Source: Candidatus Omnitrophota bacterium
GTDB lineage: Bacteria; Omnitrophota; Gorgyraeia; Gygaellales; Profunditerraquicolaceae
Direction of reading: 5' to 3'
Length of the DNA stretch: 64,000 nt
NCBI GenBank assembly: GCA_035402765.1
Contig: DAONDX010000002.1
Location: 65,173 to 129,172 of the forward strand
Numbering within the stretch: the stretch's first letter is position 1; every line of letters starts with the position of its first letter. Made by a program: the position numbers and the translations under genes. This document shows positions 21,083 to 34,674 of this stretch, one piece after another. The notes under the pieces are model-generated. The model was not told the DNA's origin. It saw only the letters and a program-made list of their open reading frames with translations, and did not search any database.

Positions 21083-21086
21083 TGAT

Positions 21087-21881: not shown

Positions 21882-22112
21882 CGCAGTTGCGACGTAAGTT
21901 GTAGCCCGCCAGGTTTTATTGGCGGACGTCCGCGAATTTATCCCGCCGAAATACCAAAACTCTAGAGAGTTTTGGTATTGCTTCTGAGGCGGGACCTTCC
22001 CTATTTGTTATTTAGCGGGCTCTACCACTGTCCCCGCCGTTCCACCGATAATCAAATTTAAAAATTTTACCATAACTTAAAATAAAAACGTCCCTTAGTA
22101 ATTATTAAGATT
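21882..22112 (-). promoter_or_regulatory. Long structured leader / intergenic region upstream of the nucleoside phosphorylase gene
   Basis: 230 bp with no credible ORF. Contains perfect palindrome CCAAAACTCTAGAGAGTTTTGG. Hairpin CAACTTACGgagcaacgcagttgcgaCGTAAGTTG. GC-rich paired segments (CCCGCCAGG...CGGACGTCCGCG). Confidence 0.3.
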
Positions 22113-22182
22113 TTTGCGGGTGGCTTGGGTGTTTTCGCAGCGCGTCAGCGCTAGAAAATACCCAAGACAGGCCCCGCAAAAA
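22113..22182. repeat. Structured intergenic repeat, copy 2
   Basis: GATTTTTGCGGGTGGCTTGGGTGTTTTC-gcagcgcgtcagcgctag-GAAAATACCCAAGACAGGCCCCGCAAAAATC. Outer 12-bp arms are perfect reverse complements. Confidence 0.8.
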
Positions 22183-22184
22183 TC

Positions 22185-23096
22185 TTAAAGAGCAAACAGC
22201 TTTGCTAAATTCCCCCCCAGAATATTCTCCTTCTCCTCCTGGGTCAAATCCAAATCCTTAACCGCCTTAATACCTGCGGCAATATCCTGCTTAGCCGGCC
22301 AATCGCTGCCCCACAGAATACGCCGGGGCCCCATTAAATCTAAACTTAATAAAAAGTTAGCGCGGGTGGTGTCTCCGCTGGTATCCACATAAATATTTTT
22401 AAAATAATCCGACGGCAAACCTTGCAGATCTTTGACAAAATTCATCTTGCGCAGCATCTGATAGGTCGCATCAAAGCGCTGTTTTAGATAACAGATCGCC
22501 CCGCCGAAATAGGCAAAGATAAATCTGGTCCTGGGGAACTGCCTCAACACATCCGACATTAAAAGCTTGCCGGCTGAAATCGTAGTATCAAAAATATATT
22601 CAACTACCGGGGTAAGCAGCGGGTCCTTAACCCGTTCATAACCAATCGGGTTAACAATCTGGGAGTGCACAAAAATCGGCAGGCCTTTTTCTTCCGCCAG
22701 TTTATACACCGGTAAAAACATCTTATCATCTAAATATATCCCGTTATAGCTGGAAGCCAGAGAGACCGCTTTAAAACCTAATTCTTCGGTTACGCGTTTT
22801 ATTTCATCTACCACATCAATAGAATTATCAAAAGGAAGGATCGCAGCTCCGATAAATCTTTCCGGATAAGCCTTTAAAATCTTTCCCACATTATCATTAA
22901 ACAGATGGGCCACCTGGCTGATACTGCCTAATTTTAAATGCGCATCAGAAGTCGGATAGCTTAATACCGCCCGGTCAATACCGGCCTCATCCATCATCTT
23001 AAGCTGGGCCTCAATATCCCCCCAACCCTTATGGAAAAAGTGGGCATTAGAAATTATTTCATCCGGAAGCCAGTGGGAATGTGCGTCAATTAACAT
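22185..23096 (-). CDS. Amidohydrolase-2 family metal-dependent hydrolase/decarboxylase (ACMSD-like)
   Basis: 303 aa. N-terminal MLIDAHSHW metal-binding His pair. Later HS..V and D..W motifs typical of PF04909. Confidence 0.7.
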   Translation of the reverse strand: MLIDAHSHWLPDEIISNAHFFHKGWGDIEAQLKMMDEAGIDRAVLSYPTSDAHLKLGSISQVAHLFNDNVGKILKAYPERFIGAAILPFDNSIDVVDEIKRVTEELGFKAVSLASSYNGIYLDDKMFLPVYKLAEEKGLPIFVHSQIVNPIGYERVKDPLLTPVVEYIFDTTISAGKLLMSDVLRQFPRTRFIFAYFGGAICYLKQRFDATYQMLRKMNFVKDLQGLPSDYFKNIYVDTSGDTTRANFLLSLDLMGPRRILWGSDWPAKQDIAAGIKAVKDLDLTQEEKENILGGNLAKLFAL

Positions 23097-23527
23097 TAAT
23101 GCTCCGTGCTCTTTAGTATACGCTGGGTCATCTCTTGTTCATACATCGCCTTGATCCTAAAAAATTCTTTACGGCCAAGCTCTTTGACGATGGATTTCTC
23201 AATTGCCCGCAGCTTAACATCCAGAAAAATAAACTCGGTATTTTTCCTTAAACCTTGGCACTTTAGATCCGAACAAGCCTTTTCTTTAACGGCAATATAA
23301 GCCTGAAAATCACCTACCATCTTCTCAAGCTGGGCTTTTTCATGCGGCAGATACGCGCCCATCAGCTCATTTTTAATTTCCCTTAAGATATCTTGATCAA
23401 TGTCAACTTGGGTAAACTTGCGTTCAAACTTATCAAACGCCTCTTTGGTGGTTTTGTACAGCCAGATAAGATAACGTTTCTTTAGGTTCTTAATATCCTG
23501 ATTATCCATATTTACCTCCTTGCCCAC
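23096..23527 (-). CDS. Hypothetical cytoplasmic protein
   Basis: 143 aa ORF, charged/helical. No recognisable motif. Start overlaps the stop of the upstream gene. Confidence 0.35.
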   Translation of the reverse strand: MGKEVNMDNQDIKNLKKRYLIWLYKTTKEAFDKFERKFTQVDIDQDILREIKNELMGAYLPHEKAQLEKMVGDFQAYIAVKEKACSDLKCQGLRKNTEFIFLDVKLRAIEKSIVKELGRKEFFRIKAMYEQEMTQRILKSTEH

Positions 23528-23602: not shown

Positions 23603-24214
23603 TTATTTCTTTACCAATTCCACCGTATCAAAATAAAGGGTACCTTTGGTTCCGGGAAGCGGCTCAAATTGAAACATCCTGATCGGAAAATCCATTACTC
23701 CGTTTTGATCGGCATCCTGCGGCTGCCAATCATCACGCACGATGAATTTATCAAAACTAACCACTACTTTTTTCCAGCCGGCAAAATCGTCATCGGCGAT
23801 AAACCGCCAAATCTCACCCCCGGTATCTTTGATATCAAAAGCGATCTTAGCTTTTGAATTTGTCCCGTAGACATAAAAAGATACCGCGCTGTATTCTTCC
23901 CATTTGATATCGGAAGGCTTGACCGCCCAGTTAGCATTCTTGGCATCTAACCCGGCGCCGCGGGCAATATACATATAACCACCGCTGACCGCATCATAAT
24001 CAACCTTCAAAGCCTGTTTACCGCTATTTTTAATATCGCTGGCTCCGATCACCTGGATACTTGAACCATTGCCGGCGCCAAAATCCACGGTGCCGTCAGC
24101 GCCGCCGGAAACCACAATTTCAAAATCATCAAGCAAGACATTGCTCTCGGCTGCCCAACCGGCGCCCGAGATTAATAAAACTAAAGCTGCAGTTAAAAAT
24201 CCTGTTTTTTTCAT
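23603..24214 (-). CDS. Secreted protein of unknown function
   Basis: 203 aa. Clear signal peptide (MKKTGFLTAALVLLISGAGWA). Beta-rich composition. Confidence 0.45.
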   Translation of the reverse strand: MKKTGFLTAALVLLISGAGWAAESNVLLDDFEIVVSGGADGTVDFGAGNGSSIQVIGASDIKNSGKQALKVDYDAVSGGYMYIARGAGLDAKNANWAVKPSDIKWEEYSAVSFYVYGTNSKAKIAFDIKDTGGEIWRFIADDDFAGWKKVVVSFDKFIVRDDWQPQDADQNGVMDFPIRMFQFEPLPGTKGTLYFDTVELVKK

Positions 24215-24264: not shown

Positions 24265-25071
24265 TTATTTTCCCGGATGCTGCTGTTTATAAGGTATCAC
24301 CGGAGCAACCCAGGGCGTTTGCTGGTTAATTACCGCGATCTCTAAAGGGCAGACATTAGCCGGGACGGTTAAAGCAAAACGCACCGCGTCTTCAATGGCC
24401 TGCGTGCTCATCAAACGCGAGGTATCCGTACTGATATTCTGAAGTTTACCGGTTAAGTCCGTATCGGTAACCCCGGGTAATATCGAAGTAACTTTAATCC
24501 CGTGGTCGCGCAATTCCCAAAACAAACCCTTGGAAAATGCCCTTAAGCCTACCTTAAGCGAGCTGTAAACGATAAAGGTCCTGGGCAGCGGGTCACATAA
24601 GGTCGAACCGGAGACCATATTAATGATCGCTCCGCTTTTATTCTTGATCATATCATTAATCACCAGGCGGATCATCCGCACATAGCCCAAATAATTAGTA
24701 TGCGCTAATTTCTCGAAATCCTCGATCGGCTGATCCTGAAAAGGATATTGGCTGGATACCCCGGCATTATTGATCAGGATATCGATCTGGCCAAACTTCT
24801 CTTTGGCGCTTTTGACTAAATTTTCCAGATCTTCTAATTTTGTCACATCGCAAGCTACCGGCAAAACCTGGACTTTAAATTTTTTGGCGATCTCATCGGC
24901 AGTCTCTTTTAAAGGGCCCAGATTACGCGCCCCGATCACTAAATTAACCCCAAGACTGGCGGCGGTACAGGCCAAGGCTTTGCCAATTCCACGGCTGGCA
25001 CCGGTAACAATTGCTGTTTTTCCTTTTAATTCTAAACTCATACCTCTCCTCCTTATGTACGTACATAACAC
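24265..25071 (-). CDS. Short-chain dehydrogenase/reductase (candidate polyketide ketoreductase)
   Basis: 268 aa. TGASRGIG Rossmann motif, NNAG, catalytic YxxxK (YSSLK). First gene-distal member of the PKS operon. Confidence 0.85.
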   Translation of the reverse strand: MLCTYIRRRGMSLELKGKTAIVTGASRGIGKALACTAASLGVNLVIGARNLGPLKETADEIAKKFKVQVLPVACDVTKLEDLENLVKSAKEKFGQIDILINNAGVSSQYPFQDQPIEDFEKLAHTNYLGYVRMIRLVINDMIKNKSGAIINMVSGSTLCDPLPRTFIVYSSLKVGLRAFSKGLFWELRDHGIKVTSILPGVTDTDLTGKLQNISTDTSRLMSTQAIEDAVRFALTVPANVCPLEIAVINQQTPWVAPVIPYKQQHPGK

Positions 25072-25108: not shown

Positions 25109-26242
25109 TTAGCCCCGGGTGTATATTTTATTTCCGACTACCCGGCTAAACATTAATAAAATCAGCAGCCCCGAACCAAACACTAAAAATCCTAAACCAA
25201 AACTTTTCTGCATGATCAAACCGCCCAAGCTCACTCCTATGCCGCCGGCAATAAAACGCACGGCGCTGTTTAGGCTTGCGGCTTCATTGAGAAGCTCCGC
25301 CGGCAGATCCGTAAGCATAGTGGATAAACCCACATGATTAAAAGTCCAGCCCATGCCCCAAACAATCATCACGACAGCCAATAACCCCACCGGCAACTTG
25401 ATCAAGAGCAGAAAAACACAGACGATCATCGAAAGAATGCCTAAATTTACCACTTTTAACCGGCCCAGGGAATCTGCCAGATGGCCTCCCCAAACTTCCC
25501 CGAATATCCCGGCTAAGCTGGTCAGAGTGATCAGCATGCTGATTAAAAACTGGTTTAAATTTAATTGCGTCGAGAAATAAACTCCCAGCCATTGCTGCAC
25601 AGCATGATAAATCAAACTTATCAGGAAAATATAGCCGAAAATTTTAATGACTTTTTTATTTTTAAACGCCTCGAAATAACCCAGGCGGAAATTTCCGGCA
25701 TCCGCTTTAAAACTGGGCAAATAAAAATACATAAAAATCCAAAGTATAAATCCACAGAGCGCCGGAATGAGAAAAATCAACCTCCAGGAAATTATCCCGC
25801 TTAAAAACAGGCCCAATAAAGAAGCTATGAATGTCGAGCCAAAAAATAAACCAAGATAACGGCCGCGCTTAGCCGGCTTTAGGTGTTTGGCAATCACGAT
25901 CAAGCCCAGAGGAATAACCGAGGCTCCAAAAAATCCCATCATAAACCGGGCCGCAAAAAGCACAGAGATATTACCCGCTGCGGCTGCCAAAAGATTAGCC
26001 AGGGAAAACAAGAAGATGCAGAATAATTCAACCTTGCGGGCATCAAATAAGCGTACCAACGGACCATACAGCAGCGCCGCCAGCCCGTAAGGAAGCATAT
26101 ACAACCAGATAATTTTGCCGACCACAAATTGAGAAAGAGCAAAATCCGCGGCAATTGAAGGAACCAGCGCAGCAGAGGCTGCCACATTAAACGATAGAAC
26201 CGCTCCTTCTAAACAAAGGATAATAAAGGTAAGTGCGCTCAC
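25109..26242 (-). CDS. MFS transporter (candidate product exporter)
   Basis: 377 aa, ~12 predicted TM helices. MFS loop motif (LFDARKV). 4-bp overlap with the upstream aromatase/cyclase gene. Confidence 0.8.
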   Translation of the reverse strand: MSALTFIILCLEGAVLSFNVAASAALVPSIAADFALSQFVVGKIIWLYMLPYGLAALLYGPLVRLFDARKVELFCIFLFSLANLLAAAAGNISVLFAARFMMGFFGASVIPLGLIVIAKHLKPAKRGRYLGLFFGSTFIASLLGLFLSGIISWRLIFLIPALCGFILWIFMYFYLPSFKADAGNFRLGYFEAFKNKKVIKIFGYIFLISLIYHAVQQWLGVYFSTQLNLNQFLISMLITLTSLAGIFGEVWGGHLADSLGRLKVVNLGILSMIVCVFLLLIKLPVGLLAVVMIVWGMGWTFNHVGLSTMLTDLPAELLNEAASLNSAVRFIAGGIGVSLGGLIMQKSFGLGFLVFGSGLLILLMFSRVVGNKIYTRG

Positions 26243-26679
26243 TTAGCCGCTTCTTTTTCAATAATCGCTTTAAAGATCTTCAGGTTATGCTGCGAGCCTT
26301 CGTTAATAAAACCTTCGATCTGTTGGTCATTAAATTTGGCTTTGGCATCCATATGAAAATGCTGAATCCAAGTTAATTCAATGCCCCCGGTAACCGGCGT
26401 GTAGAGCCAAATAATCTTCATATACTCAAAAGGAAACAGCGGATCTTCACGCTGCGAATAAGTAAAAAACTTATCTTTAAACAAAAGCCTCCAGGATTGC
26501 CAGGTTTTATCATCCTCATCGGTTAGACGAAAAGTAATTTTATTCGCCTCTTTCTTGACCAGCTCGGCTTTTTTATATTCCGTGCCGAATAATTCCGTCC
26601 AGCGCGGGATATCATTGGAAATATCAAAAACTAAATCGTAAGGCGCCTTAATCACTATCGAATTACAGGTATGTCCCAT
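26239..26679 (-). CDS. Type II PKS aromatase/cyclase of the SRPBCC family (TcmN N-terminal / WhiE-ORFVI / ZhuI-like)
   Basis: Track ORF 26239-26886 trimmed to the internal start MGHTCNSIVIKAPYDLVFDISND (ATG 26679-26677), preceded by GGGGGGATTAA Shine-Dalgarno. Pattern NSIVI.AP.DLV.D..ND...W..LF.EY..AE......FRL..DED..W.SW......Y..W.Y....GG..L.W.Q.F.M is the ARO/CYC polyketide_cyc2 signature as I recall it. Confidence 0.7.
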   Translation of the reverse strand: MGHTCNSIVIKAPYDLVFDISNDIPRWTELFGTEYKKAELVKKEANKITFRLTDEDDKTWQSWRLLFKDKFFTYSQREDPLFPFEYMKIIWLYTPVTGGIELTWIQHFHMDAKAKFNDQQIEGFINEGSQHNLKIFKAIIEKEAAK

Positions 26680-26892: not shown

Positions 26893-27693
26893 TTAATCTA
26901 AAAGAGCAACTACCCTTGCCCAAGCCGCTCCGGTATTTTTGATGCGGATAGGCATACAAAGCACCTTAAATCCAAAATCCGGCAAGCTTTCTAAATTTGC
27001 CAACCGCTCGATATGGATAAATTCTTTTTTTCTTCCGTAGAAATGCGCCGGATAAAATGTTTTAGGGTCTTTGGTCTTTAAGAATTCACTGAGCATAAAT
27101 CTGTAGGGCCGGTCAATCCCCATCGTATCTACGCCAAAGATCTTGACCCCCTGGCCTAATAAATATTCGATGGCGCAAGGGCTGACTCCGGGATAATCGG
27201 CAAAATATTTAGGGCCGCCGTATAACTTATCGGCTCCGGTCTGCAGTAATACGATATCTAAAGGTTTAAGCTGGTAATTGATCTTGGTTAAAGCTTCGCA
27301 AAGGTCCTGTTCCTTGATTACTTCATTTGGTTTTTTATGCCGCAGGTCTAATTTTACTCCGGGCTGATAACAATATTCCAGGGGTATCTCATCGGCGGTT
27401 TTAGAGGCGCGATTTTCAGATTGAGAACCGTAATGGAAGGAATAATCCAGGTGCGTACCGATGTGCACCGGAGCATGGACAATCTCCAAAGAGAGAAATT
27501 CTTCATCGGGCAGCTCTTCTTTTTTCACGATGCGGCCGCCCAATGCGTATTTAATCTTGCCCAAAAGAGTTTTGCCCATGATTACCCGGTTAAACTTTTC
27601 TACCCCGGCTTTATGGGTTACTCTTTCGATAGCCACTTTGTGTACCTCAAAAGCGGTCTCATCAATGGGTAAGCTTAAATCTACTATCTTCAC
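26893..27693 (-). CDS. Cyclase-family protein (PF04199, kynurenine-formamidase fold)
   Basis: 266 aa. Diagnostic HxGTHxDxxxH motif (VHIGTHLDYSFH). Confidence 0.7.
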   Translation of the reverse strand: MKIVDLSLPIDETAFEVHKVAIERVTHKAGVEKFNRVIMGKTLLGKIKYALGGRIVKKEELPDEEFLSLEIVHAPVHIGTHLDYSFHYGSQSENRASKTADEIPLEYCYQPGVKLDLRHKKPNEVIKEQDLCEALTKINYQLKPLDIVLLQTGADKLYGGPKYFADYPGVSPCAIEYLLGQGVKIFGVDTMGIDRPYRFMLSEFLKTKDPKTFYPAHFYGRKKEFIHIERLANLESLPDFGFKVLCMPIRIKNTGAAWARVVALLD

Positions 27694-27761: not shown

Positions 27762-27998
27762 TCATTTTGCTAATTTGCTCTCAATATTAGCGGTGATATC
27801 ATTAATTGTGGAATTTTTGGTAATCTCTTTAGGGCTCAGCTTGACCCCGAAAGATTTCTCTAAAGCAATTACCGATTCCACCATCTCCGTAGAATCTACG
27901 CCGATACTGTCGATCAGAGTAGAACCATCTTTTAATTCCTCGATCTTTACTTTTAAGAGGTTGCTTAACACTTCTTTTACTTTTGTTTTTGTATCCAT
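27762..27998 (-). CDS. Acyl carrier protein
   Basis: 78 aa, acidic. Phosphopantetheine-attachment DS motif in GVDSTEMVESVIALE. Confidence 0.8.
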   Translation of the reverse strand: MDTKTKVKEVLSNLLKVKIEELKDGSTLIDSIGVDSTEMVESVIALEKSFGVKLSPKEITKNSTINDITANIESKLAK

Positions 27999-28012
27999 CT
28001 ATCCTCCAACAT

Positions 28013-28090
28013 TATTATTTACGGGTGGCTTGGGTGTTTTCGTAGCGCGTCAGCGCAAGAAAATACCCAAGACAGGACCCGTAAATTTTA
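28013..28090. repeat. Structured intergenic repeat, copy 3
   Basis: TTATTTACGGGTGGCTTGGGTGTTTTC-gtagcgcgtcagcgcaag-GAAAATACCCAAGACAGGACCCGTAAATT. Outer arm TTTACGGG/CCCGTAAA carries G>A and C>T changes that preserve pairing relative to copies 1 and 2. Confidence 0.8.
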
Positions 28091-29548
28091 TATCTGTACT
28101 TCCCCTTTAGTCGCCGCCGCTTCCCACTTATTCAATCCGTCAATAACATCTTGAATACAAAGCTTGGCCAGCGGATCAAAATCGCTTTCCATGATCCGGT
28201 TGATCCGGCCGGGCTTTGAGAAAAATTCACGCATACACCAGGAACCTAAACGGCCCAGGTCTTCGGTGGTCAAATGATCCGTAGGGATTACCGGATGCAG
28301 AAAATCCCAAGTGCTAAAATCAACTTTTTTCGGATCAATCCACCCCTTCTTTAAAGCAATCCTCCACATCGGTGAATTGGGAGCCGGAGTGACATAACCT
28401 ACCCACAGGATATCCGGGTCCACCATGTCGGTGAACTCAAAACGCTGTTTGACGATCTCTTCGGTATCGTAATCAAACCCCATCATAATATCGGCAACAA
28501 TAGCAATATCATTTTTACGCAAGATCTCGATAGTCTTCTTAATCTGCTCGATGGTTGTGCCTTTAGCGATTCTTTTGAGCTCAGATTGTGTCGTTACTTC
28601 AATTCCAAAAACTCCCATAAACAGGCCTGCCTCTTTCATCAGCGGCAGAATTGATTCACAGTTAACCCAATCCACAGCCCTGCCTAAAGCCACCCATTTC
28701 GTTTCGATCTTTTTAGCCAACTTTAATTCACAGAACTTTTTAACCCTGGCAGCATCAACAATGAAATTATCATCCTGGATTACCACTACCTTGACTTTGT
28801 ATTTATTCTGCAAAAGTTCCAGCTCCTCAATTACCCGCTCCGGGCTTTTAGCGCGCCATTTTAAAAAATCTGACGGAGAACGCGGGTCAAATTGATCCCA
28901 TTCATAACAAAAAGTACAGGCCGAAGGACAACCCCGGGAGGTAACCATATCGACAAACGGCTTCCAATAAGTATGCCCGGAATATTTATCCATGGGGAAC
29001 AAGTCATAGGCCGGTAAAGGAAGCTTATCCAAATCTGTCATCAAGGGCTTATGCGGCCCCATCACGATCTGCCCATTAATGCGCGAGGTGACTCCGCCGA
29101 CATCTTTGAGCGGTTTATTTTTATCGATCGCTTCAATTAAATCCCCAAAAGATTCCTCTTCCCCCATCACGATAAAATCAACTTCCGGAATTTCTTCTAA
29201 GGTCGGAATGGGCATGGCGGAATACCAAAGCCCGCCCAAAATGATCTTTATTTTAGGCAGCGCTTTTTTAATTCCGATCGCCGCATCTTTAAAATGACGC
29301 AAAACTCCGTATCCGCCGTAGCCGTGCAGCTGCTCACCCATCACCACAATATCAGGGTTTATATTTTTTACCTGTTGGATCAGCTGCTCCATGGGTATCT
29401 GTTCGGCTTTAGCGTCGATTACCGCTACATCTTTATAACCTTTCTCCCGGATATAAGCAGCCCAATGCGCATATAACTGATTCGGAGACCGGTGAATTCC
29501 ATGCGTGGCCCAGGCGCCGACTTTAGGCATCACAAATAGTATTTTCAT
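28088..29548 (-). CDS. Class B (cobalamin-binding) radical SAM enzyme
   Basis: 486 aa. N-terminal B12-binding Rossmann-like domain (MKILFVMPKVGAWATHG...). Radical SAM CxxxCxxC (RGCPSACTFCYE). Confidence 0.85.
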   Translation of the reverse strand: MKILFVMPKVGAWATHGIHRSPNQLYAHWAAYIREKGYKDVAVIDAKAEQIPMEQLIQQVKNINPDIVVMGEQLHGYGGYGVLRHFKDAAIGIKKALPKIKIILGGLWYSAMPIPTLEEIPEVDFIVMGEEESFGDLIEAIDKNKPLKDVGGVTSRINGQIVMGPHKPLMTDLDKLPLPAYDLFPMDKYSGHTYWKPFVDMVTSRGCPSACTFCYEWDQFDPRSPSDFLKWRAKSPERVIEELELLQNKYKVKVVVIQDDNFIVDAARVKKFCELKLAKKIETKWVALGRAVDWVNCESILPLMKEAGLFMGVFGIEVTTQSELKRIAKGTTIEQIKKTIEILRKNDIAIVADIMMGFDYDTEEIVKQRFEFTDMVDPDILWVGYVTPAPNSPMWRIALKKGWIDPKKVDFSTWDFLHPVIPTDHLTTEDLGRLGSWCMREFFSKPGRINRIMESDFDPLAKLCIQDVIDGLNKWEAAATKGEVQI

Positions 29549-29583: not shown

Positions 29584-30816
29584 TTAAGCTGCTTTTTCAA
29601 CTACGAGCACGGAATTAATTCCGCCGCGGCCGCGTGAAATAATTAAAGATTTGTTTACCTTATATTCTTTGGCCTCGCCAGCCACATAATTTAAGCTGTT
29701 TTGAGCCGGCTTTTCTAAATTTAATGTCGGAGCAACTAAACTATGTTCCATGGTTAAAAGCGCAATGATCATATCTAAGGCGCCGGAAGCGCCCAGTAAA
29801 TTCCCAAACATCGACTTTGGACAGCTGGCCGGGATTTTCTTCAAGTTTTTGCCAAAGACTAACTCCAGGGCTTTTACCTCGGAATTATCCCAAAGTTCAA
29901 CTGCCAAGCCGTCTAAACTAATGTAACCGATCTCCTCAGGCAACGCTTTAGCATCATCCAGGGCCATTTTAATTGCCCGGGCTAATTCTTTTCCGTCGCT
30001 GGCGCAATTAATCCGATCTACTCCGTCACAGGCAGTACCATAGCCGGAAATTAACCCTAAAATGTTGGCGTTACGGCTCCGGGCGCGCTGAATACTCTCC
30101 ATCACTACGATCCCGGCGCCTTCACCGATTACAAAACCGTTGCGCTCCCGGTCAAAGGGCCGATAAGCTCCGGCCGGATCATGATTATTTTTAGAAAGCG
30201 CCCCGTAAGTATTACAACACAATAAAGCATACGGAGAAACCGGCGCTTCCATCCCTCCGCCTAAGATCATATTAAGTTTATTCTTCGCTAAAACTTTTCG
30301 GGCATAACCCAGCGCCATAAGCGAACTGGCCCGGTCACTGACCACGGTCTTGCTGAAACCTTTAATCCCGTAATAAATTGAAACCTGGCCTTGGGGAGCC
30401 GCCGGGAACCAGGCGCTGGCCATATAAGGCGAAACACCTTCCCGGCCTTCCAGGTATAAATCCCTTAATTCCGTCTCAGCGTAAAGCCAGCCGCCGATAG
30501 CATTACCTAAAAAAATCCCCACCAGATTCGGATCTTCGTTCTTGATATCGATCCCGGCATCCTGCAGCGCTAACTCCGCGGCCACCAGCGCCATATGCGA
30601 AAATGCGTCAATTTTCTTAAGCAGTCTTTCGGAGATGTGGCTATACTTTTCTAAATCATCTATTTGGCCGGCAATATGAGAAGGATAAAGGCTGGCATCA
30701 AAACGCCTGATCTCTTTAATAAAAGAACGGCCGCTTTTAATGTTGGCCCAAAACTGCCGCTTACCGATTCCCGACGGGCTGACTACGCCGATACCTGTAA
30801 TTGCAATCTTTTCCAT
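29584..30816 (-). CDS. Ketosynthase-beta / chain-length-factor-like protein (KS fold, catalytic triad absent)
   Basis: Start reassigned to MEKIAITGIGVVSPSG: ATG 30816-30814 overlaps KS-alpha stop as TAATG. Thiolase/KS fold throughout. Active-site Cys position reads VVSDRASSL (no Cys, no Gln). Both His positions replaced (YISLDGLAV; MFGNLLGASG). Confidence 0.75.
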   Translation of the reverse strand: MEKIAITGIGVVSPSGIGKRQFWANIKSGRSFIKEIRRFDASLYPSHIAGQIDDLEKYSHISERLLKKIDAFSHMALVAAELALQDAGIDIKNEDPNLVGIFLGNAIGGWLYAETELRDLYLEGREGVSPYMASAWFPAAPQGQVSIYYGIKGFSKTVVSDRASSLMALGYARKVLAKNKLNMILGGGMEAPVSPYALLCCNTYGALSKNNHDPAGAYRPFDRERNGFVIGEGAGIVVMESIQRARSRNANILGLISGYGTACDGVDRINCASDGKELARAIKMALDDAKALPEEIGYISLDGLAVELWDNSEVKALELVFGKNLKKIPASCPKSMFGNLLGASGALDMIIALLTMEHSLVAPTLNLEKPAQNSLNYVAGEAKEYKVNKSLIISRGRGGINSVLVVEKAA

Positions 30817-32096
30817 TATCCACCAAACCTTTTTAAAATAAGGGAAGAGTGTATCCCTGAAAAACCGCTGCTGGTTTTTAAAATAATATCGACCTTTTTT
30901 TGAATGGCCTGATTGGGAATATAATACAGATCGCACTGGGGGTCTTTTTCCTCCTGGTTGATCGTCGGAGGAAGAATATTTTTTTCAAAAATCAGACTAG
31001 CCATCGTCAGCTCAATGGCATTGGCCGCCGCCAGAGGATGGCCGATCATGGATTTAAAAGAACTGATCGGCAGCTTATAGGCATATTGGCCAAAAATTGT
31101 TTTATAAGCGCTGGTTTCAAAAATATCATTCATTTTCGTGCTTGAGCCGTGCGCATTAATATAATCAATTTCCGATGGTTTAACCTGGGCATCTTTTAAA
31201 GCCAAACTAATGCAAATTTCCATGGCCCGGCCGTCAGAAGGCAAATCCGTCATATGAAAAGCATTGCAGCTGGTGCCAAAACCTAAAACCTCGCAGTAAA
31301 TCGGAGCATTGCGTTTTAAGGCGTGATTTAATTCTTCCAGCACCAGAAGCCCGGCCCCTTCCCCTAAAACAAAACCATCCCTTTTATTATCAAAGGGCCG
31401 GGAGGCTTTTTGCGGTTCGTCATTATGCACGGATAAAACATTGACCACATCAAAAGCCCCGAAGGTAATCGGAGTAAGCGGGGCTTCCGCAGCACCGCAA
31501 ATCATTACATCCATCTCCGCATCCTGAATGCTCTCTAAACCAAAACCTAAAGAATCGGTACCGGCGGTACATCCGGTCGAAATAGTATTACAGTTTCCTT
31601 TTAATCCATAACGGGCGCTTAACTCAATGGAAGGAGTATTAAACATCGCCGCGTCATAAAGATCCGGGCGCACCAAAGCCGGGTTAATCGGCCGCTTGCC
31701 GTCATCGGTAACCAAAGCAAATTCTTCCTCCATATATTTTGTCCCGCAGATAGCATTAGCCAAACAAACACCCACCCGCGTTACATCTTCTTTCGAAAAA
31801 TCCAGCTGACTGTCTTCTATCGCCATTTTTCCGGCGGCTACGCCAAACTGCACGTAACGGTCCATGCGCATAGCCTCTTCATGAGTTAGACCCAATTTAA
31901 AAGGATCAAAATCCCTGACCTCGGCGGCAATCTTAGTATTAAAAACCGAAACATCAAAACCATCCACTAAACGGATCCCGGATTTACCGCTGGAAAAACC
32001 TTCCCAGGCATTCTTTTTCCCGATACCGTTGGGGGAAATTACTCCCACACCGGTAATGACTACTCTACGTTTAACCACTTTTGTTATTCCTTTCAT
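30816..32096 (-). CDS. Ketosynthase-alpha (FabF/KAS II-like, intact Cys-His-His)
   Basis: 426 aa. Active-site Cys (TISTGCTAGTDSLG). His pair (YINAHGSST; KSMIGHPLAAA). N-terminal RVVITGVGVISPNG. Confidence 0.85.
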   Translation of the reverse strand: MKGITKVVKRRVVITGVGVISPNGIGKKNAWEGFSSGKSGIRLVDGFDVSVFNTKIAAEVRDFDPFKLGLTHEEAMRMDRYVQFGVAAGKMAIEDSQLDFSKEDVTRVGVCLANAICGTKYMEEEFALVTDDGKRPINPALVRPDLYDAAMFNTPSIELSARYGLKGNCNTISTGCTAGTDSLGFGLESIQDAEMDVMICGAAEAPLTPITFGAFDVVNVLSVHNDEPQKASRPFDNKRDGFVLGEGAGLLVLEELNHALKRNAPIYCEVLGFGTSCNAFHMTDLPSDGRAMEICISLALKDAQVKPSEIDYINAHGSSTKMNDIFETSAYKTIFGQYAYKLPISSFKSMIGHPLAAANAIELTMASLIFEKNILPPTINQEEKDPQCDLYYIPNQAIQKKVDIILKTSSGFSGIHSSLILKRFGG

Positions 32097-32151: not shown

Positions 32152-32745
32152 TTATGTTTGGTTCTTTCGCGTAATCTTGAAAACAATATTTCCCCCGTCC
32201 GGACAGGTAACTGTATCAATCGTATCCGGATCAGGCATAAAGAAAAATTTAGCGCCGAAATTTAAAGCAAATAAAGCCGGAAAAGCGGTATGAAATGCCG
32301 CTCCGCAAAACCCCGGGATACATTTCAACCCTTGAGTTTCCCATTTGTCCCCTACTTTATACCCAAAAGAACATTTGCCTTTTGATTGCACTACCTCCAG
32401 GATCATTTTCTTGGGGCGGGGGCCTTGATACTCCGGATCGCGCGGGATAACTTCCAGTTTGCCGTCTTTATCCAAAATTTCAACTTTAAACTCCAGTTTG
32501 CCGCCGTCAGGACAAGTAGTCAATAACGAACGCTGATTATCGCGAAACCCGAATTTGGCGCCGAAACTTAAAGCATAAATGGTGGGAAATAAAGCATGCG
32601 CCAGGCCTAAACAAAAGTGTTTTGGCGCATGTGTAAAATCCTCCAGAATAATCACATCCCCGGCTTTATACCCGTGGTAACAGACCCCCAGAACCTGGGT
32701 CACGGTAAGTTTAAGCTTCGGGAAAGGTGTTTTTACTTCATCCAT
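32152..32745 (-). CDS. Tandem-duplicated Cys-containing domain protein of unknown function
   Basis: 197 aa of two ~95-aa repeats sharing C..GYK.GD, C.G.A..FP...AL.FGAKF.F and TCPDGG.(L/I).FK(V/I) blocks. No catalytic motif I can name. Confidence 0.5.
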   Translation of the reverse strand: MDEVKTPFPKLKLTVTQVLGVCYHGYKAGDVIILEDFTHAPKHFCLGLAHALFPTIYALSFGAKFGFRDNQRSLLTTCPDGGKLEFKVEILDKDGKLEVIPRDPEYQGPRPKKMILEVVQSKGKCSFGYKVGDKWETQGLKCIPGFCGAAFHTAFPALFALNFGAKFFFMPDPDTIDTVTCPDGGNIVFKITRKNQT

Positions 32746-32746: not shown

Positions 32747-33751
32747 TTAAACCAGCTCCTTAGTTCTGTGGATAAGATCTTCTTTGCTAAAAAATTTATG
32801 GCTAACCTCTACTTGATGCACCATCTCTACTAAAGTTTTATTCAGGGGCGCGGTAAGATTATTTTCTTCGGCCAAACGCACAAATTCTCCGTTAATATAA
32901 TCAATCTCTGAAAGTTTACCGCGCAGGATACTCTGCAATATCGAGCCATATAACGGGTCCTTGCTTAAATTTCTCATCATCCCCGAGAAAATCTCAGCGG
33001 CATGAGCGCTGGGCAGGCTGGTAAATTTAGTGAGGTTTTCGATCGGAAATCCGGGGAGAGAAACTAAATCTATCCCGATTTTATCAAATATCTCAAAAGC
33101 CTCTTTCCAAATAGCGATACTGATCCGGCTAACGGTTAAATCTCCGAAAACATCCTGTATGCTTCTGCCCAGAATTGCCGGCAGACAATTGTTAGCATTA
33201 ACAAAGATCTTTAAATATTTCATCCCCCGCATATTTTGGCTGATGATCGCCGGGAAAGCCTTATCCAAAACCAAGCTTAAATCGAGCAGCCCTTGAGTAG
33301 GGTTAGGGTTAAAAATGCTTCCCACAATCCAGCTGCCCTCGAAATTATGCACCACTATGCCGGGTTCCAAATTAGTCGCCCCGAACATGATAATACTTGA
33401 GATAATTTGCTCAACCGGTAAATATTTGGCGGCGATCTTATCTGCCTGCACACCGTTTTGCGTAGTGAGCAATAAAGAATTCTGGATTAAATGGCGGCTG
33501 GCCGATAAAGCTGAATCAATATCCTGTGTTTTAGTCGTTAAAATTACTAAATCCGGAGCGTAGTGTAATTTATCGGAGATCTCCACATGCACCGTTTGAT
33601 TCCCCCGGACTCCGGAGATGACCAGCCCCTGCCGGCTGATCACTTCAACCCCCGGACCGCGGCCGACTAAAGTTACCTCTTCGCCTTGCTTTTTAAGGTA
33701 ACCAGCAACTAAACAACCTATAGCCCCGGGGCCGATAACTGCAATACGCAT
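32747..33751 (-). CDS. ApbA/PanE-family 2-dehydropantoate-2-reductase-like NAD(P)H oxidoreductase
   Basis: 334 aa. N-terminal Rossmann MRIAVIGPGAIGCLVAGYL. ApbA_C-type C-terminal domain. Confidence 0.75.
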   Translation of the reverse strand: MRIAVIGPGAIGCLVAGYLKKQGEEVTLVGRGPGVEVISRQGLVISGVRGNQTVHVEISDKLHYAPDLVILTTKTQDIDSALSASRHLIQNSLLLTTQNGVQADKIAAKYLPVEQIISSIIMFGATNLEPGIVVHNFEGSWIVGSIFNPNPTQGLLDLSLVLDKAFPAIISQNMRGMKYLKIFVNANNCLPAILGRSIQDVFGDLTVSRISIAIWKEAFEIFDKIGIDLVSLPGFPIENLTKFTSLPSAHAAEIFSGMMRNLSKDPLYGSILQSILRGKLSEIDYINGEFVRLAEENNLTAPLNKTLVEMVHQVEVSHKFFSKEDLIHRTKELV

Positions 33752-34020
33752 TATGGTTTAACGTTTTTTGGAAAACCGTACTTTTTATAATCAAACCCGT
33801 TTTGTCCCAACAGGCGCACCATCATACTGTAAAAAGGCGAGGGCACATCGGAAAAAAAAGCCGCTACCACATCCTGGTCGCTGACTCCGGTAGAGGAGCG
33901 TTTAGCAGCAAGCTCTTCGGCTCGGCGGCGGACTACTGATTCCGTAATTCTCCGGTGGAATACCGGGATCTTGGAAATTAATACTTTAAATTTATTTTCT
34001 GTTTCCGTTTCCCAAAACAT
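33751..34020 (-). CDS. Small hypothetical protein (first ORF of the PKS operon)
   Basis: 89 aa. 1-bp overlap with the reductase gene. Faint resemblance to stand-alone PCP_red-like small domains (KIP.F.RR...E..A...G); not reliable. Confidence 0.3.
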   Translation of the reverse strand: MFWETETENKFKVLISKIPVFHRRITESVVRRRAEELAAKRSSTGVSDQDVVAAFFSDVPSPFYSMMVRLLGQNGFDYKKYGFPKNVKP

Positions 34021-34158: not shown

Positions 34159-34674
34159 TTATATTTTTTTAAGGAGCGCGCTCAAGAAAGCAGATTCTGC
34201 TTTCAGCAGGCAAAGATTATGCTCCATTATCCGCCGTAAGGGCAGGGAATTTTCCAGTTCTTTAGAATCGCACATTTTCTTTAATCCGGAGGAAATTTTG
34301 TCCAGGATTTCTGACCTTTTCTTGAGCCGGCGGCAAGCTAAAGCCGGTTGAGCAAAACCCAGGAAAAATAAACTTAAATCCAGATTGAACTGCGGGCGTT
34401 TAAAATCCAAAAGATTTTTATTGAGCAGCATCTCAAAACGCGCTTTACCCCGGGGGGTAAGACAATAAACCAGCCTCGCCGGCCGCTTGCTTTTTTTTAC
34501 TATCTGCTTGGTAAGGAAACCTTTTTTTTCTAAAATTCTTAGAGGATAATATATGGATTTTAATTGCACGCCGGCAAATAAAGAAAGGATTTCGCGTACT
34601 TTGACTTTAATTTCATAACCATGCTTAGGCCCCTGGCGCAGGAGGCCTAAAAGAATCAGTTCCTGATCAATCAT
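34159..34674 (-). CDS. PadR-family transcriptional regulator
   Basis: 171 aa. N-terminal winged HTH LILLGLLRQGPKHGYEIKVKVREI...IYYPLRILEKKGFL. 4-bp overlap with accA stop. Confidence 0.7.
   Translation of the reverse strand: MIDQELILLGLLRQGPKHGYEIKVKVREILSLFAGVQLKSIYYPLRILEKKGFLTKQIVKKSKRPARLVYCLTPRGKARFEMLLNKNLLDFKRPQFNLDLSLFFLGFAQPALACRRLKKRSEILDKISSGLKKMCDSKELENSLPLRRIMEHNLCLLKAESAFLSALLKKI

What the first reader, a model, noticed from the sequence alone, without database searches (positions are those of the whole stretch)
28088..29548. Cobalamin-dependent (class B) radical SAM enzyme between the ACP and KS genes
Class B radical SAM enzymes usually methylate unactivated carbon or phosphorus centres, or perform ring contractions. 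One sits between the ACP and KS genes, separated from the CLF gene by only 35 bp and from the ACP gene by the copy-3 repeat. That placement suggests C-methylation (or another radical tailoring step) of the polyketide or its ACP-bound intermediate. Such a step is unusual for type II PKS, whose methylations are normally SAM-dependent and polar.
Basis: partly seen in the sequence, partly recalled or inferred. Interest (0 to 1): 0.6.

Follow-up and report, generated by a model that had tools for sequence, protein, structure and literature searches.

The report
Radical SAM enzyme in polyketide cluster
The gene is a real B12-type radical SAM enzyme and one of the best-conserved parts of an uncharacterised polyketide gene cluster shared by many uncultured anaerobic Omnitrophota, but its chemistry (methylation or something else) and its use of cobalamin are not established.

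Summary
Window 28088-29548(-) encodes a 486-aa protein with a B12-binding domain and a radical SAM core (CPSACTFC). It lies 35 bp after a Cys-less KSbeta/CLF gene and 89 bp before an ACP gene, and that spacer holds an 88-nt hairpin repeat. The window comes from an Omnitrophota genome.

The enzyme belongs to an uncharacterised class-B family. Its best curated match is BchE at 216 bits against a cut-off of 481. The methylase families score 19-116 bits.

Relatives with 36-94% identity sit in rearranged versions of one gene set: KSalpha, CLF, ACP, two cyclases, reductases, Amidohydro_2 and a TIGR04076 protein. This covers at least 71 Omnitrophota species, Ca. Velamenicoccus archaeovorus and a Thermodesulfobacteriota contig. 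Cluster membership is therefore solid, but the position between CLF and ACP is not fixed.

The family also travels with a second set: a nucleoside phosphorylase, an MtnA-like isomerase, a class II aldolase fused to SCP2, an aldehyde dehydrogenase and an acyl-CoA ligase. That set resembles 5'-deoxyadenosine salvage.

The chemistry is unresolved. My estimates are C-methylation about 0.4, BchE/OxsB-like oxidation or rearrangement about 0.3, and adenosyl transfer about 0.15. Cobalamin binding is inferred only. I class it as a new variant of a known kind.

The parts
28088..29548 (-). Class-B-architecture radical SAM enzyme (the finding), 486 aa
   Evidence: PF02310 + PF04055. CxxxCxxC is invariant. 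AF2 model pLDDT 92.5 with class-B fold matches. Best curated hit is BchE, 216 bits, below its cut-off.
29584..30816 (-). KSbeta / chain-length-factor-like subunit, catalytically dead (Cys->Arg, His->Asp, His->Asn), 410 aa from the ATG that overlaps the KS stop
   Evidence: Ketoacyl-synt N and C domains. Alignment to KSalpha shows the triad substitutions. TAATG overlap.
30816..32096 (-). KSalpha ketosynthase with intact Cys-His-His
   Evidence: Best PDB matches are actinorhodin KSalpha 1tqy_A (370 bits) and 6smo_B, deposited as a PKS_KS domain protein (367 bits), just above FabF (354). Triad seen.
27762..27998 (-). Acyl carrier protein, 78 aa, DS(T) phosphopantetheine motif
   Evidence: PF00550; ACP families.
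28012..28099 (.). 88-nt hairpin repeat (one of three copies) inserted in the rSAM-ACP spacer. It is a lineage-specific insertion, not a conserved part of the system.
   Evidence: 3 copies, 0 expected by chance. (-34.8 kcal/mol, z -5.6). Present in only 1 of 169 related loci.
26893..27693 (-). PF04199 'putative cyclase' family protein
   Evidence: Conserved next to ACP in nearly all versions of the cluster.
26239..26679 (-). SRPBCC polyketide cyclase/aromatase-like protein (~147 aa; the listed ORF is longer than the homologues)
   Evidence: PF10604/PF03364. Homologues are 146-151 aa.
25109..26242 (-). MFS transporter
   Evidence: PF07690. Present in 43 of 80 species loci.
24265..25071 (-). SDR ketoreductase
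   Evidence: PF00106/KR. 3-ketoacyl-ACP reductase-like.
23603..24214 (-). Protein with CBM11-like domain; its N-terminus (MKKTGFLTAALVLLISGAGWA) looks like a signal peptide by eye
   Evidence: PF03425. Kept in 37 of 80 loci and in V. archaeovorus. Signal peptide not tested with a predictor.
23096..23527 (-). Conserved hypothetical protein (orf143)
   Evidence: No family found. Syntenic in 53 of 80 loci.
22185..23096 (-). Amidohydro_2 family protein (candidate decarboxylase/hydrolase)
   Evidence: PF04909. Conserved in all architectures that carry the PKS.
21087..21881 (-). PNP_UDP_1 nucleoside phosphorylase (DeoD/Udp-like; weak HpnG, MTAN and futalosine-hydrolase similarity)
20088..21002 (-). 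MtnA-like (IF-2B family) sugar-1-phosphate isomerase, 304 aa
   Evidence: TIGR00524 210 bits, above its cut-off of 185.85. PF01008.
19092..20087 (-). Class II aldolase fused to a C-terminal SCP2 lipid-binding domain
   Evidence: PF00596 + PF02036. Nearest structures are 6voq and DrdA 6btd, both ~210 aa without SCP2. The fusion is kept over its full length in 19 of the 20 aldolase hits listed, covering all architectures that carry the aldolase.
17605..19092 (-). NAD(P)-dependent aldehyde dehydrogenase
   Evidence: PF00171.
16103..17605 (-). AMP-forming acyl-CoA ligase, long-chain fatty-acid-CoA-ligase-like
   Evidence: PF00501. NF004837 431 bits. Travels with the rSAM/shunt set in architectures D, E and F.
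32152..32745 (-). Tandem-duplicated TIGR04076 protein; each half carries conserved Cys and His residues; function unknown
   Evidence: two stretches. 72-75% identical to the copies in L081/L082 (Thermodesulfobacteriota contig) and L089 (divergent Omnitrophota).
32747..33751 (-). ApbA/PanE-family NAD(P)H ketoreductase
33751..34020 (-). orf89, a small protein that immediately follows the rSAM gene in several other lineages. Sub-threshold PCP_red/DUF2621 similarity.
   Evidence: rSAM-orf89-ApbA adjacency in L083, L089, L104, L119, L128, L140, L155.
34159..34674 (-). PadR-family regulator at the head of the cluster
   Evidence: Syntenic in the Omnitrophota loci that extend that far.

Best explanation
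The gene encodes a radical SAM enzyme of class-B architecture: an N-terminal Rossmann/B12-binding-type domain, one CxxxCxxC [4Fe-4S] site and a helical C-terminal domain. It is a fixed, strongly conserved component of a type II polyketide synthase cluster found in strict anaerobes, mainly Omnitrophota and also a Thermodesulfobacteriota contig.

Proposed mechanism, all inferred: the reduced cluster cleaves SAM to a 5'-deoxyadenosyl radical. [quoted passage not shown] My single most likely outcome is cobalamin-mediated C-methylation (about 0.4). A BchE/OxsB/HpnJ-type oxygen-independent oxidation, ring closure or rearrangement is almost as likely (about 0.3).

The stoichiometric by-product 5'-deoxyadenosine would be removed by the co-inherited phosphorylase (21087-21881), MtnA-like isomerase (20088-21002) and class II aldolase (19092-20087), giving DHAP and acetaldehyde. 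The aldehyde dehydrogenase (17605-19092) would oxidise the acetaldehyde.

Shown: domain content, fold, cluster membership and conservation. Inferred: substrate, cobalamin use, the reaction, and the salvage role of the neighbouring genes.
For: - Domains and motif. Class-B fold.
- Cluster membership: synteny orf89-ApbA-TIGR04076-KS-CLF-rSAM-ACP-cyclase-SRPBCC-(MFS)-SDR-...-Amidohydro_2-PNP-MtnA. All 71 species-level genome loci of at least 8 kb carry PKS genes, and 42 of them also carry the shunt genes. The same block occurs on a Thermodesulfobacteriota contig at 76% rSAM identity.
- Rearranged versions at 36-72% identity still keep the rSAM with the PKS set.
- The rSAM is the slowest-evolving gene of the cluster: median 88% identity, against 83% for KS and 80% for the housekeeping AccA. 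It is the top-identity gene in 54 of 76 loci. It is also the top gene in L158, L160, L161 and L163, which were fetched with a different query.
- The PNP/MtnA/aldolase trio matches the published 5-deoxyribose salvage route, phosphorylase variant (PMC6079011). The aldolase domain is closest to DrdA 6btd.
- From my own knowledge, class B enzymes acting on carrier-tethered substrates exist (CysS, TokK), and they are structural relatives here.
- A radical SAM methylase of another class (HemN-like) in a type II PKS pathway is documented: coelulatin, PMC9714029.
Against: - No curated methyltransferase family matches well (19-116 bits against cut-offs of 282-750). The best profile and structure matches are non-methylating enzymes: BchE, HpnJ, AprD4, OxsB.
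- Cobalamin binding is not shown. There is no cobalamin gene or riboswitch in the 64-kb window.
- A plain salvage reading does not explain three things. The aldolase carries an SCP2 lipid-binding domain in every architecture that has it. The ligase is long-chain fatty-acid-CoA-ligase-like rather than acetate-CoA-ligase-like. The rSAM and shunt genes also occur without any PKS, inside MMPL/LolA-like/DUF1302 lipid-export operons.
- Sixteen of 51 diverse loci show neither gene set within the DNA held.
- The conservation ranking is partly biased, because the 80 genome loci were selected by rSAM similarity.
Confidence: 0.42

Rival explanations
1. Non-methylating class-B chemistry. As in BchE (anaerobic oxidation and ring closure with oxygen from water), OxsB or HpnJ (ring contraction), the enzyme performs an O2-independent oxidation, C-C ring closure or rearrangement of the aromatic polyketide. 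One example would be benzylic CH2 to C=O, replacing the O2-dependent anthrone-type oxygenases of aerobic type II PKS pathways.
For: BchE is the best curated match over nearly the full length (residues 3-431, 216 bits), followed by HpnJ at 157 bits; methylases score 116 bits or less. The family profile against PDB ranks AprD4 (177 bits) and OxsB (148 bits, including the B12 domain) above the methylases MgmA, TsrM, TokK and CysS. The hosts are anaerobes without a terminal oxidase (bioRxiv 10.64898/2026.06.07.730766), and the cluster has no oxygenase. One variant cluster (L089) sits next to a molybdenum hydroxylase, another water-dependent oxidant. Multi-SAM oxidations would make a dedicated 5'-deoxyadenosine outlet useful.
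Against: All these scores are far below the family cut-offs. From my own knowledge, 'BchE-like' paralogues include true methylases (BchQ/BchR), so similarity within class B predicts chemistry poorly. Most characterised class B enzymes are methylases.
Confidence: 0.3
2. Adenosyl transfer. The 5'-deoxyadenosyl radical is added to an sp2 carbon of a hydrophobic acyl or polyketide substrate, as in HpnH and MqnE. The phosphorylase, isomerase, aldolase-SCP2, aldehyde dehydrogenase and acyl-CoA ligase then form a processing line rather than a salvage route. They would trim the adduct to R-CH2-CHO plus DHAP, oxidise it to R-CH2-COOH and activate it as a thioester. The net result is a radical two-carbon extension, comparable to 5'-fluorodeoxyadenosine going to fluoroacetate.
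For: The rSAM family and the PNP/MtnA/aldolase-SCP2/Aldedh/ligase set stay together down to 36% rSAM identity. They are interleaved with PKS genes in architecture E and occur with no PKS nearby in architecture F, inside MMPL/LolA-like/DUF1302 operons. The aldolase is always fused to SCP2, which solved salvage aldolases lack. The ligase is long-chain type. An extra small IF-2B-like ORF accompanies the isomerase in distant versions. The trio rSAM + PNP-family enzyme + MMPL exporter parallels HpnH/HpnG plus, from my own knowledge, the exporter HpnN (HpnH/HpnG: PMC13459092). The PNP has weak HpnG and futalosine-hydrolase similarity.
Against: Known adenosylating enzymes (HpnH, MqnE) are not class B, and MqnE is only a distant fold match. 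The trio is fully explained by the known salvage route (PMC6079011). The V. archaeovorus cluster and other B-type clusters have no shunt genes within 10 kb. There is no direct evidence for an adduct.
Confidence: 0.15
3. B12-independent chemistry on a class-B scaffold. As in AprD4, the N-terminal domain no longer binds cobalamin and the enzyme performs a radical dehydration, reduction or epimerisation.
For: AprD4 is the top hit by sequence, by family profile and by fold. The profile match to AprD4 covers only the radical SAM and C-terminal parts.
Against: PF02310 scores above its cut-off. The BchE and OxsB matches extend through the N-terminal domain. Identity to AprD4 is only 18-19%.
Confidence: 0.08
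4. A housekeeping enzyme that is merely adjacent: a true BchE, HpnJ, HpnR or ladderane-type orthologue, or a cofactor-biosynthesis enzyme unrelated to the polyketide genes.
For: Very high sequence conservation, comparable to a housekeeping gene. A stand-alone TetR-MBL-rSAM arrangement exists at 57-60% identity.
Against: All curated families are far below cut-off. No bch or hpn genes are nearby. The linkage to the PKS set survives repeated rearrangement across lineages.
Confidence: 0.04

Closest known systems
BchE (anaerobic Mg-protoporphyrin IX monomethyl ester oxidative cyclase, TIGR02026)
   Same: Class-B layout. It is the best curated profile match, covering residues 3-431. Both occur in anaerobes and both would act on a planar conjugated substrate.
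   Different: 216 bits against a cut-off of 481. There are no bacteriochlorophyll genes nearby, and from my own knowledge the hosts are not phototrophs. The gene is linked to KS/CLF/ACP.
Class B methyltransferases on carrier-tethered substrates (CysS, TokK/ThnK; KedN5 family)
   Same: Same fold. From my own knowledge, these enzymes take a pantetheine- or carrier-bound substrate. An ACP gene lies next to the rSAM gene here.
   Different: 13-18% identity. Those enzymes are 620-680 aa with larger C-terminal domains. KedN5 scores 66 bits against a cut-off of 700. Methyl transfer is not shown here.
AprD4 (6fd2) and OxsB (5ul2-4)
   Same: Nearest solved relatives by sequence profile and by fold.
   Different: They belong to aminoglycoside and oxetanocin pathways. 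From my own knowledge, AprD4 lacks cobalamin and OxsB has extra domains (744 aa).
HemN-like (class C) radical SAM methylase of the coelulatin type II PKS pathway (PMC9714029)
   Same: A radical SAM tailoring enzyme encoded in a type II PKS cluster and acting on an aromatic polyketide.
   Different: Different radical SAM class with no B12 domain.
Anammox ladderane cluster (amxACP, FabF/FabF-mut heterodimer, B12 radical SAM; bioRxiv 10.64898/2026.05.19.726425, PMC13459092)
   Same: A KS plus dead-KS heterodimer, a dedicated ACP and a B12-type radical SAM enzyme in anaerobes. From my own knowledge, both host phyla are placed in the PVC group. Clusters annotated as ladderane BGCs are reported for Omnitrophota and Desulfobacterota MAGs (PMC9902471).
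   Different: The ladderane rSAM family TIGR04072 scores 73 bits against a cut-off of 360. This cluster has two cyclases and an SRPBCC protein, and its KS is as close to actinorhodin KSalpha as to FabF. No FabZ or desaturase was found among the cluster genes scanned.
5-deoxyribose / DHAP-shunt salvage (phosphorylase or kinase, MtnA-like isomerase, DrdA/Ald2 aldolase; PMC6079011)
   Same: The same three enzyme families in one operon. The aldolase domain is closest to 6voq and DrdA 6btd.
   Different: The aldolase carries a conserved SCP2 domain. The phosphorylase is DeoD/Udp-like rather than MTAP-like. The set always comes with an aldehyde dehydrogenase and a long-chain-type ligase, and it is welded to one radical SAM family.
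HpnH / HpnG / HpnN (hopanoid side-chain extension and export)
   Same: The logic of radical SAM + PNP-family enzyme + MMPL exporter acting on a lipid (HpnH and HpnG in PMC13459092; HpnN from my own knowledge). The F-type operons have exactly this trio.
   Different: HpnH is not class B and did not appear among the NCBIfam hits. The resemblance is functional only.

Membership tests
Radical SAM superfamily | CxxxCxxC motif for the SAM-binding [4Fe-4S] cluster and a match to PF04055 | tested here: met
   C207/C211/C214 are invariant in 47 homologues. PF04055 72.5 bits against a cut-off of 29.5.
Class B (B12-binding-domain) radical SAM | N-terminal Rossmann-type B12-binding domain preceding the radical SAM barrel | tested here: met
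   PF02310 38.9 bits against 32.1. AF2 model with beta-alpha N-domain. Fold matches to TsrM, TokK, OxsB, CysS and MgmA.
Class B (B12-binding-domain) radical SAM | Actual binding and use of cobalamin | not testable with these tools
   No sequence signature is decisive. The nearest structure, AprD4, is B12-independent from my own knowledge. There are no cobalamin genes or riboswitch in the window.
BchE (TIGR02026 equivalog) | Score at or above the curated cut-off (481.35 bits) | tested here: not met
   216.3 bits.
BchE (TIGR02026 equivalog) | Bacteriochlorophyll biosynthesis gene context | tested here: not met
   No bch genes in the 64-kb window or in related loci. The neighbours are PKS genes.
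HpnJ / HpnR hopanoid radical SAM enzymes | Score at or above the curated cut-offs (577.6 / 650 bits) | tested here: not met
   157.4 and 95.5 bits. No hpn genes nearby.
Ladderane lipid B12 radical SAM (TIGR04072) | Score at or above the curated cut-off (360 bits) | tested here: not met
   73.4 bits.
Class B C- and P-methyltransferase families (PhpK, Sden_1168, KedN5, RiPP C-MT, MCR Gln-MT, Trp 2-C-MT, ApyD) | Score at or above the curated cut-off of any family | tested here: not met
   19-116 bits against cut-offs of 282-750.
Class B C- and P-methyltransferase families (PhpK, Sden_1168, KedN5, RiPP C-MT, MCR Gln-MT, Trp 2-C-MT, ApyD) | Methyl transfer with S-adenosylhomocysteine plus 5'-deoxyadenosine formation | not testable with these tools
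   Requires an enzyme assay.
Type II polyketide synthase (minimal PKS) as the gene's context | KSalpha with a Cys-His-His triad | tested here: met
   STGC175TAG, AH316GSST and GH352P are visible in the alignment. Best PDB hit is actinorhodin KSalpha.
Type II polyketide synthase (minimal PKS) as the gene's context | KSbeta/CLF lacking the active-site Cys, classically replaced by Gln | tested here: inconclusive
   The Cys is lost, but it is replaced by Arg, not Gln. Both His residues are also lost. The 1-nt start/stop overlap with KSalpha suggests translational coupling.
Type II polyketide synthase (minimal PKS) as the gene's context | Discrete ACP and aromatase/cyclase genes | tested here: met
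   ACP PF00550. SRPBCC and PF04199 cyclase.
5-deoxyribose / DHAP-shunt salvage | Clustered phosphorylase (or kinase), MtnA-like isomerase and class II aldolase | tested here: met
   PF01048, PF01008 and PF00596 in consecutive genes. The aldolase is nearest 6voq and DrdA 6btd.
5-deoxyribose / DHAP-shunt salvage | Activity on 5'-deoxyadenosine-derived sugars giving DHAP + acetaldehyde | not testable with these tools
   The SCP2 fusion and the long-chain-type ligase leave the true substrate open.

The most novel reading that the evidence does not exclude
The enzyme does not simply release 5'-deoxyadenosine. It forms a C-C bond between the adenosyl 5'-carbon and a hydrophobic acyl or polyketide substrate. 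The always-associated phosphorylase, MtnA-like isomerase, SCP2-fused aldolase, aldehyde dehydrogenase and acyl-CoA ligase then cut the adduct down to a two-carbon-extended acyl thioester that feeds the KS/CLF or a lipid-export pathway. This would be a previously undescribed 'radical carboxymethylation' route, combining HpnH/MqnE-type adenosylation with fluorinase-type downstream processing, and the first adenosyl-transferring class-B-scaffold enzyme.
Probability: 0.15. Interest if true: 0.9.

Novelty: new variant of a known kind. Interest (0 to 1): 0.62.

Why it matters
Type II polyketide tailoring is known almost entirely from aerobic actinomycetes, where O2-dependent and polar SAM enzymes do the work. 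This cluster is a widely conserved, slowly evolving type II PKS system in genome-reduced, fermentative, host-dependent anaerobes, including the archaeon-lysing Ca. Velamenicoccus archaeovorus. Its best-conserved gene is an uncharacterised class-B radical SAM enzyme.

Working out the reaction would show how aromatic polyketides are tailored without oxygen. It would also assign a function to a family of well over a thousand sequences that sources currently label 'BchE' or 'YgiQ'. It may identify the metabolite that Omnitrophota keep despite heavy genome reduction.

The linked phosphorylase/isomerase/aldolase-SCP2/dehydrogenase/ligase module has two possible meanings. Either it is a case of a biosynthetic cluster carrying its own 5'-deoxyadenosine disposal, or it is a new way of using the adenosyl moiety as a building block.

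Tried and rejected
- **BchE, HpnJ, HpnR, ladderane and curated methylase orthology:** rejected on curated cut-offs and on gene context.
- **Meaning of the CLF-rSAM-ACP order:** rejected. At least five other gene orders exist and the spacers vary from 0 to 930 bp.
- **The 88-nt repeat as part of the system:** rejected. It is a lineage-specific hairpin insertion with 3 copies in this window and is present in 1 of 169 other loci.
- **Cobalamin supply:** no cob, cbi or btu genes and no cobalamin riboswitch in the window. The rest of the genome is not available.
- **Structure of the TIGR04076 protein:** The single-sequence model was unusable at pLDDT 39.9, so no fold search was made.
- **afdb50 fold search:** library unavailable.
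- **PDB sequence searches for TIGR04076 and orf89:** nothing significant.
- **Literature:** They found no description of this cluster or of a class B enzyme in a type II PKS pathway. The last search, intended to find V. archaeovorus papers, was swamped by the other terms.
- **Cultured hosts:** none found beyond the V. archaeovorus enrichment genome.
- **Fold and profile comparison as a guide to chemistry:** they confirm the class but do not discriminate between reactions.
Full report
**Observation.**
The ORF at 28088-29548 on the minus strand is real (ATG start, 486 aa). GGAGG lies 8 nt upstream of the start. Pfam finds a B12-binding domain (residues 30-133, 38.9 bits, cut-off 32.1) and a Radical_SAM domain (residues 201-371, 72.5 bits). 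The SRGC207PSAC211TFC214 motif is invariant in an alignment of 47 homologues reaching down to 27% identity. No further Cys is invariant, so an auxiliary Fe-S cluster is unlikely. An AlphaFold2 model built on that alignment is confident (pLDDT 92.5, pTM 0.92). Its best Foldseek matches in the PDB are all class-B-type enzymes: AprD4, TsrM, MgmA, TokK, OxsB and CysS (E 1e-22 to 1e-17, 13-19% identity).

A KS-like gene without catalytic residues ends 35 bp upstream at 29584. An ACP gene (27762-27998) begins 89 bp downstream. That spacer is filled by one copy of an 88-nt repeat.

**Organism and cluster.**
The closest relatives come from Candidatus Omnitrophota MAGs, at up to 94% identity.

All genes from the PadR regulator (34674) down to an AMP-forming ligase (16103) lie on the minus strand with short gaps. 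In order they are:
- PadR regulator
- an 89-aa protein (orf89)
- an ApbA/PanE reductase
- a tandem TIGR04076 protein
- KSalpha
- KSbeta/CLF
- the radical SAM enzyme
- ACP
- a PF04199 cyclase
- an SRPBCC cyclase/aromatase-like protein
- an MFS transporter
- an SDR ketoreductase
- a CBM11-like protein whose N-terminus looks like a signal peptide
- a 143-aa protein (orf143)
- an Amidohydro_2 protein
- a PNP_UDP_1 phosphorylase
- an MtnA-like isomerase
- a class II aldolase fused to SCP2
- an aldehyde dehydrogenase
- a long-chain-type acyl-CoA ligase

KSalpha keeps Cys-His-His. It is marginally closer to actinorhodin KSalpha (370 bits) and to 6smo_B, deposited as a PKS_KS domain protein (367 bits), than to FabF (354 bits). 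The partner subunit has Arg, Asp and Asn in place of the triad, and its ATG overlaps the KSalpha stop (TAATG). The rest of the window is housekeeping: accA, leuS, rlmN, murJ, purH, mnmE and others. It contains no cobalamin genes and no cobalamin riboswitch.

**Conservation.**
A scan of one genome per species found relatives in 219 genomes, and the best 80 loci were fetched. All 71 of those with at least 8 kb carry the PKS genes, and 42 also carry the phosphorylase/isomerase/aldolase genes.

Within these loci the radical SAM gene is the most conserved gene. Its median identity is 88%, against 83% for KS, 80% for CLF and 80% for the housekeeping AccA. It is the top-identity gene in 54 of 76 loci. 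Those loci were chosen by rSAM similarity, which inflates its rank. However, the same order holds in L158, L160, L161 and L163, which were fetched with a different query.

The complete block from orf89 to the aldolase also occurs on a contig whose protein is labelled Thermodesulfobacteriota, at 76% rSAM identity. There it is flanked by MarR and MMPL genes on one side and DUF1329 and DUF1302 genes on the other.

**The family beyond close relatives.**
A search of 1.84 billion representative proteins shows the family thinning out quickly. Four full-length representatives lie at 38-46% identity, and below them comes a large background of 27-35% class-B proteins (submitted, collected). I read the contexts of those representatives. 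I also ran a metagenome scan seeded with a distant member, mapped the window's proteins onto the loci and clustered the rSAM sequences.

The family occurs in these arrangements:

| Type | Gene order | Example loci |
|---|---|---|
| A | window order | genome loci L001-L080 |
| B | PKS...Amidohydro_2-rSAM at the end | L095-L100, L125, L129, and Ca. Velamenicoccus archaeovorus CP019384 |
| C | rSAM-orf89-ApbA-TIGR04076-KS... | L104, L107, L111, L112, L114, L155 |
| D | ligase-PNP-MtnA-aldolase-Aldedh-rSAM-orf89-ApbA-KS... | L119, L128, L134, L140 |
| E | ligase-PNP-[PKS genes]-SDR-rSAM-Amidohydro_2-MtnA-aldolase-Aldedh | L123, L148, L152, L156 |
| F | no PKS: MMPL-rSAM-PNP-MtnA-(IF-2B fragment)-aldolase::SCP2-Aldedh-LolA-like x2-DUF1302-ligase x2 | L085, L091, L106, L108, L110, L124, L171 |
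| G | MBL-TetR-rSAM alone | L126, L130, L141, L146 |

One Omnitrophota cluster (L089) has two paralogues, one at each end, next to a molybdenum hydroxylase. Among 51 non-redundant diverse loci of at least 8 kb, 12 show both gene sets, 16 the PKS only, 7 the shunt only and 16 neither.

Two conclusions follow. The slot between CLF and ACP is incidental, and the flanking spacers range from 0 to 930 bp. The linkage of this family to the PKS set and to the phosphorylase/isomerase/aldolase-SCP2/dehydrogenase/ligase set is old and has survived many rearrangements.

**What the enzyme is not.**
Every curated NCBIfam family is far below its cut-off:

| Family | Score (bits) | Cut-off (bits) |
|---|---|---|
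| BchE | 216 | 481 |
| HpnJ | 157 | 578 |
| ApyD | 116 | 750 |
| PhpK | 97 | 600 |
| HpnR | 96 | 650 |
| BzaD | 92 | 450 |
| ladderane rSAM | 73 | 360 |
| KedN5 | 66 | 700 |

There are no bch or hpn genes nearby. That condition is not met.

**What chemistry.**
Sequence and structure confirm the class but not the reaction. Non-methylating enzymes come first in all three rankings:
- NCBIfam: BchE, then HpnJ.
- Family profile against PDB: AprD4 177 bits, OxsB 148, then the methylases MgmA 140, TsrM 115, TokK 110 and CysS 103.
- Foldseek: AprD4 first.

Two points from my own knowledge pull the other way. Most characterised class B enzymes are methylases. The 'BchE-like' group also contains true methylases, so this lean is weak.

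The biology adds a further argument. The hosts are anaerobes without a terminal oxidase (bioRxiv 10.64898/2026.06.07.730766) and the cluster has no oxygenase. A radical enzyme is therefore the obvious substitute for O2-dependent tailoring.

My estimates are:
- about 0.3 for BchE/OxsB/HpnJ-type oxidation, ring closure or rearrangement
- about 0.15 for adenosyl transfer
- the remainder for B12-independent chemistry or an unrelated role

The general statement is that this is a dedicated radical tailoring enzyme of this polyketide pathway. I hold that at about 0.8.

**The co-inherited module.**
[quoted passage not shown] The aldolase domain here is closest to 6voq and to DrdA 6btd. The simplest reading is that the cluster carries its own outlet for the inhibitory by-product of a high-flux radical SAM step.

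Three features do not fit a generic salvage route:
- The aldolase is fused to an SCP2 lipid-binding domain. The fusion spans the full length in 19 of the 20 aldolase hits listed, covering every architecture that has the aldolase.
- The ligase that always accompanies the set is long-chain-fatty-acid-CoA-ligase-like rather than acetate-CoA-ligase-like.
- The set plus the rSAM also occurs without a PKS, inside MMPL/LolA-like/DUF1302 operons that look like lipid export systems.

This leaves room for a bolder reading. In it the adenosyl radical is added to the substrate, as with HpnH and MqnE (PMC13459092). The module then trims the adduct to a two-carbon-extended acid that the ligase activates. 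The evidence does not exclude this reading, but nothing supports it directly. Known adenosylating enzymes are not class B, and B-type clusters such as that of V. archaeovorus have no shunt genes within 10 kb.

**Comparison with known systems.**
A radical SAM methylase in a type II PKS pathway is documented, but it is a HemN-like class C enzyme (coelulatin, PMC9714029). The anammox ladderane cluster also combines a KS/dead-KS heterodimer, a dedicated ACP and a B12 radical SAM enzyme (bioRxiv 10.64898/2026.05.19.726425; PMC13459092). A metagenomic study reports clusters annotated as ladderane BGCs in Omnitrophota and Desulfobacterota MAGs (PMC9902471). I did not test whether those are this cluster. 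Here the rSAM fails the ladderane family test, and the cyclases point to an aromatic or cyclised product. Ten full-text searches found no description of this cluster.

**Verdict.**
This is a new variant of a known kind. It is an uncharacterised class-B radical SAM family embedded in a conserved anaerobic type II PKS cluster, with an unusual SCP2-bearing module that resembles 5'-deoxyadenosine processing.

Noticed in passing
window 21007-21094, 22107-22194, 28012-28099: An 88-nt imperfect palindrome occurs exactly three times in the window, always in intergenic spacers of this one cluster (MtnA/PNP, PNP/Amidohydro_2, rSAM/ACP). It folds into a strong hairpin on the mRNA strand (-34.8 kcal/mol, z -5.6). 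Only 1 of 169 related loci (L035) carries it. It looks like a REP/MITE-like insertion or an intercistronic stabiliser.
   Followed up: partly
window 19092-20087 (-); also L085, L106, L171 and others: A class II aldolase of the DrdA/Ald2 type is fused to a C-terminal SCP2 lipid-binding domain. The fusion spans the full length in 19 of the 20 aldolase hits listed, down to 36% identity. The solved salvage aldolases that match best are ~210 aa and lack this domain.
   Followed up: partly
window 32152-32745 (-): A tandem-duplicated TIGR04076 protein in which each half carries conserved Cys and His residues. It is 72-75% identical to the copies in L081/L082 (Thermodesulfobacteriota contig) and L089 (a divergent Omnitrophota cluster). 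It has no PDB relative, and the single-sequence AF2 model failed (pLDDT 39.9). Function unknown; it could bind a metal.
   Followed up: partly
window 23603-24214 (-): A protein with a CBM11-like domain and an N-terminus that looks like a signal peptide sits inside the polyketide cluster. It is retained in 37 of 80 species loci and in V. archaeovorus, which is an odd component for a PKS cluster.
   Followed up: no
window 33751-34020 (-); L083, L089, L104, L119, L128, L140, L155: The 89-aa protein immediately follows the radical SAM gene in several other lineages (rSAM-orf89-ApbA). It has sub-threshold similarity to the PCP_red domain of protochlorophyllide reductase subunit B and to DUF2621. 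It may be a partner of the enzyme.
   Followed up: partly
L089 (GCA_040753015.1, JBFMHM010000007.1): A variant cluster carries two paralogous class-B radical SAM genes, one at each end. It is followed by a xanthine-dehydrogenase-family molybdoenzyme and molybdenum cofactor biosynthesis genes.
   Followed up: no
L171 (LR991655.1, record labelled Candidatus Methanoperedenaceae archaeon): A 2.5-Mb record named as an archaeon carries the PKS-less operon with bacterial outer-membrane-type genes (LolA-like, DUF1302). It has the same gene order as L106. This suggests a mislabelled genome or horizontal transfer.
   Followed up: no
P0128, P0129, P0130 (representative-library hits): Proteins of 2,096-2,331 aa contain four or five separate stretches matching this radical SAM enzyme (27-29% identity). 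They are giant proteins with several radical SAM-like modules.
   Followed up: no
L126, L130, L141, L146: Family members at 57-60% identity stand alone behind a metallo-beta-lactamase-fold gene and a TetR regulator, with no PKS or shunt genes within 10 kb.
   Followed up: partly
window 39184-39984 (-), 51087-52274 (-), 15060-16091 (-): Three further radical SAM genes lie in the window: a small SPASM-domain protein, a lysine-2,3-aminomutase-like protein and RlmN. The cluster's enzyme is therefore not the only local source of 5'-deoxyadenosine.
   Followed up: no
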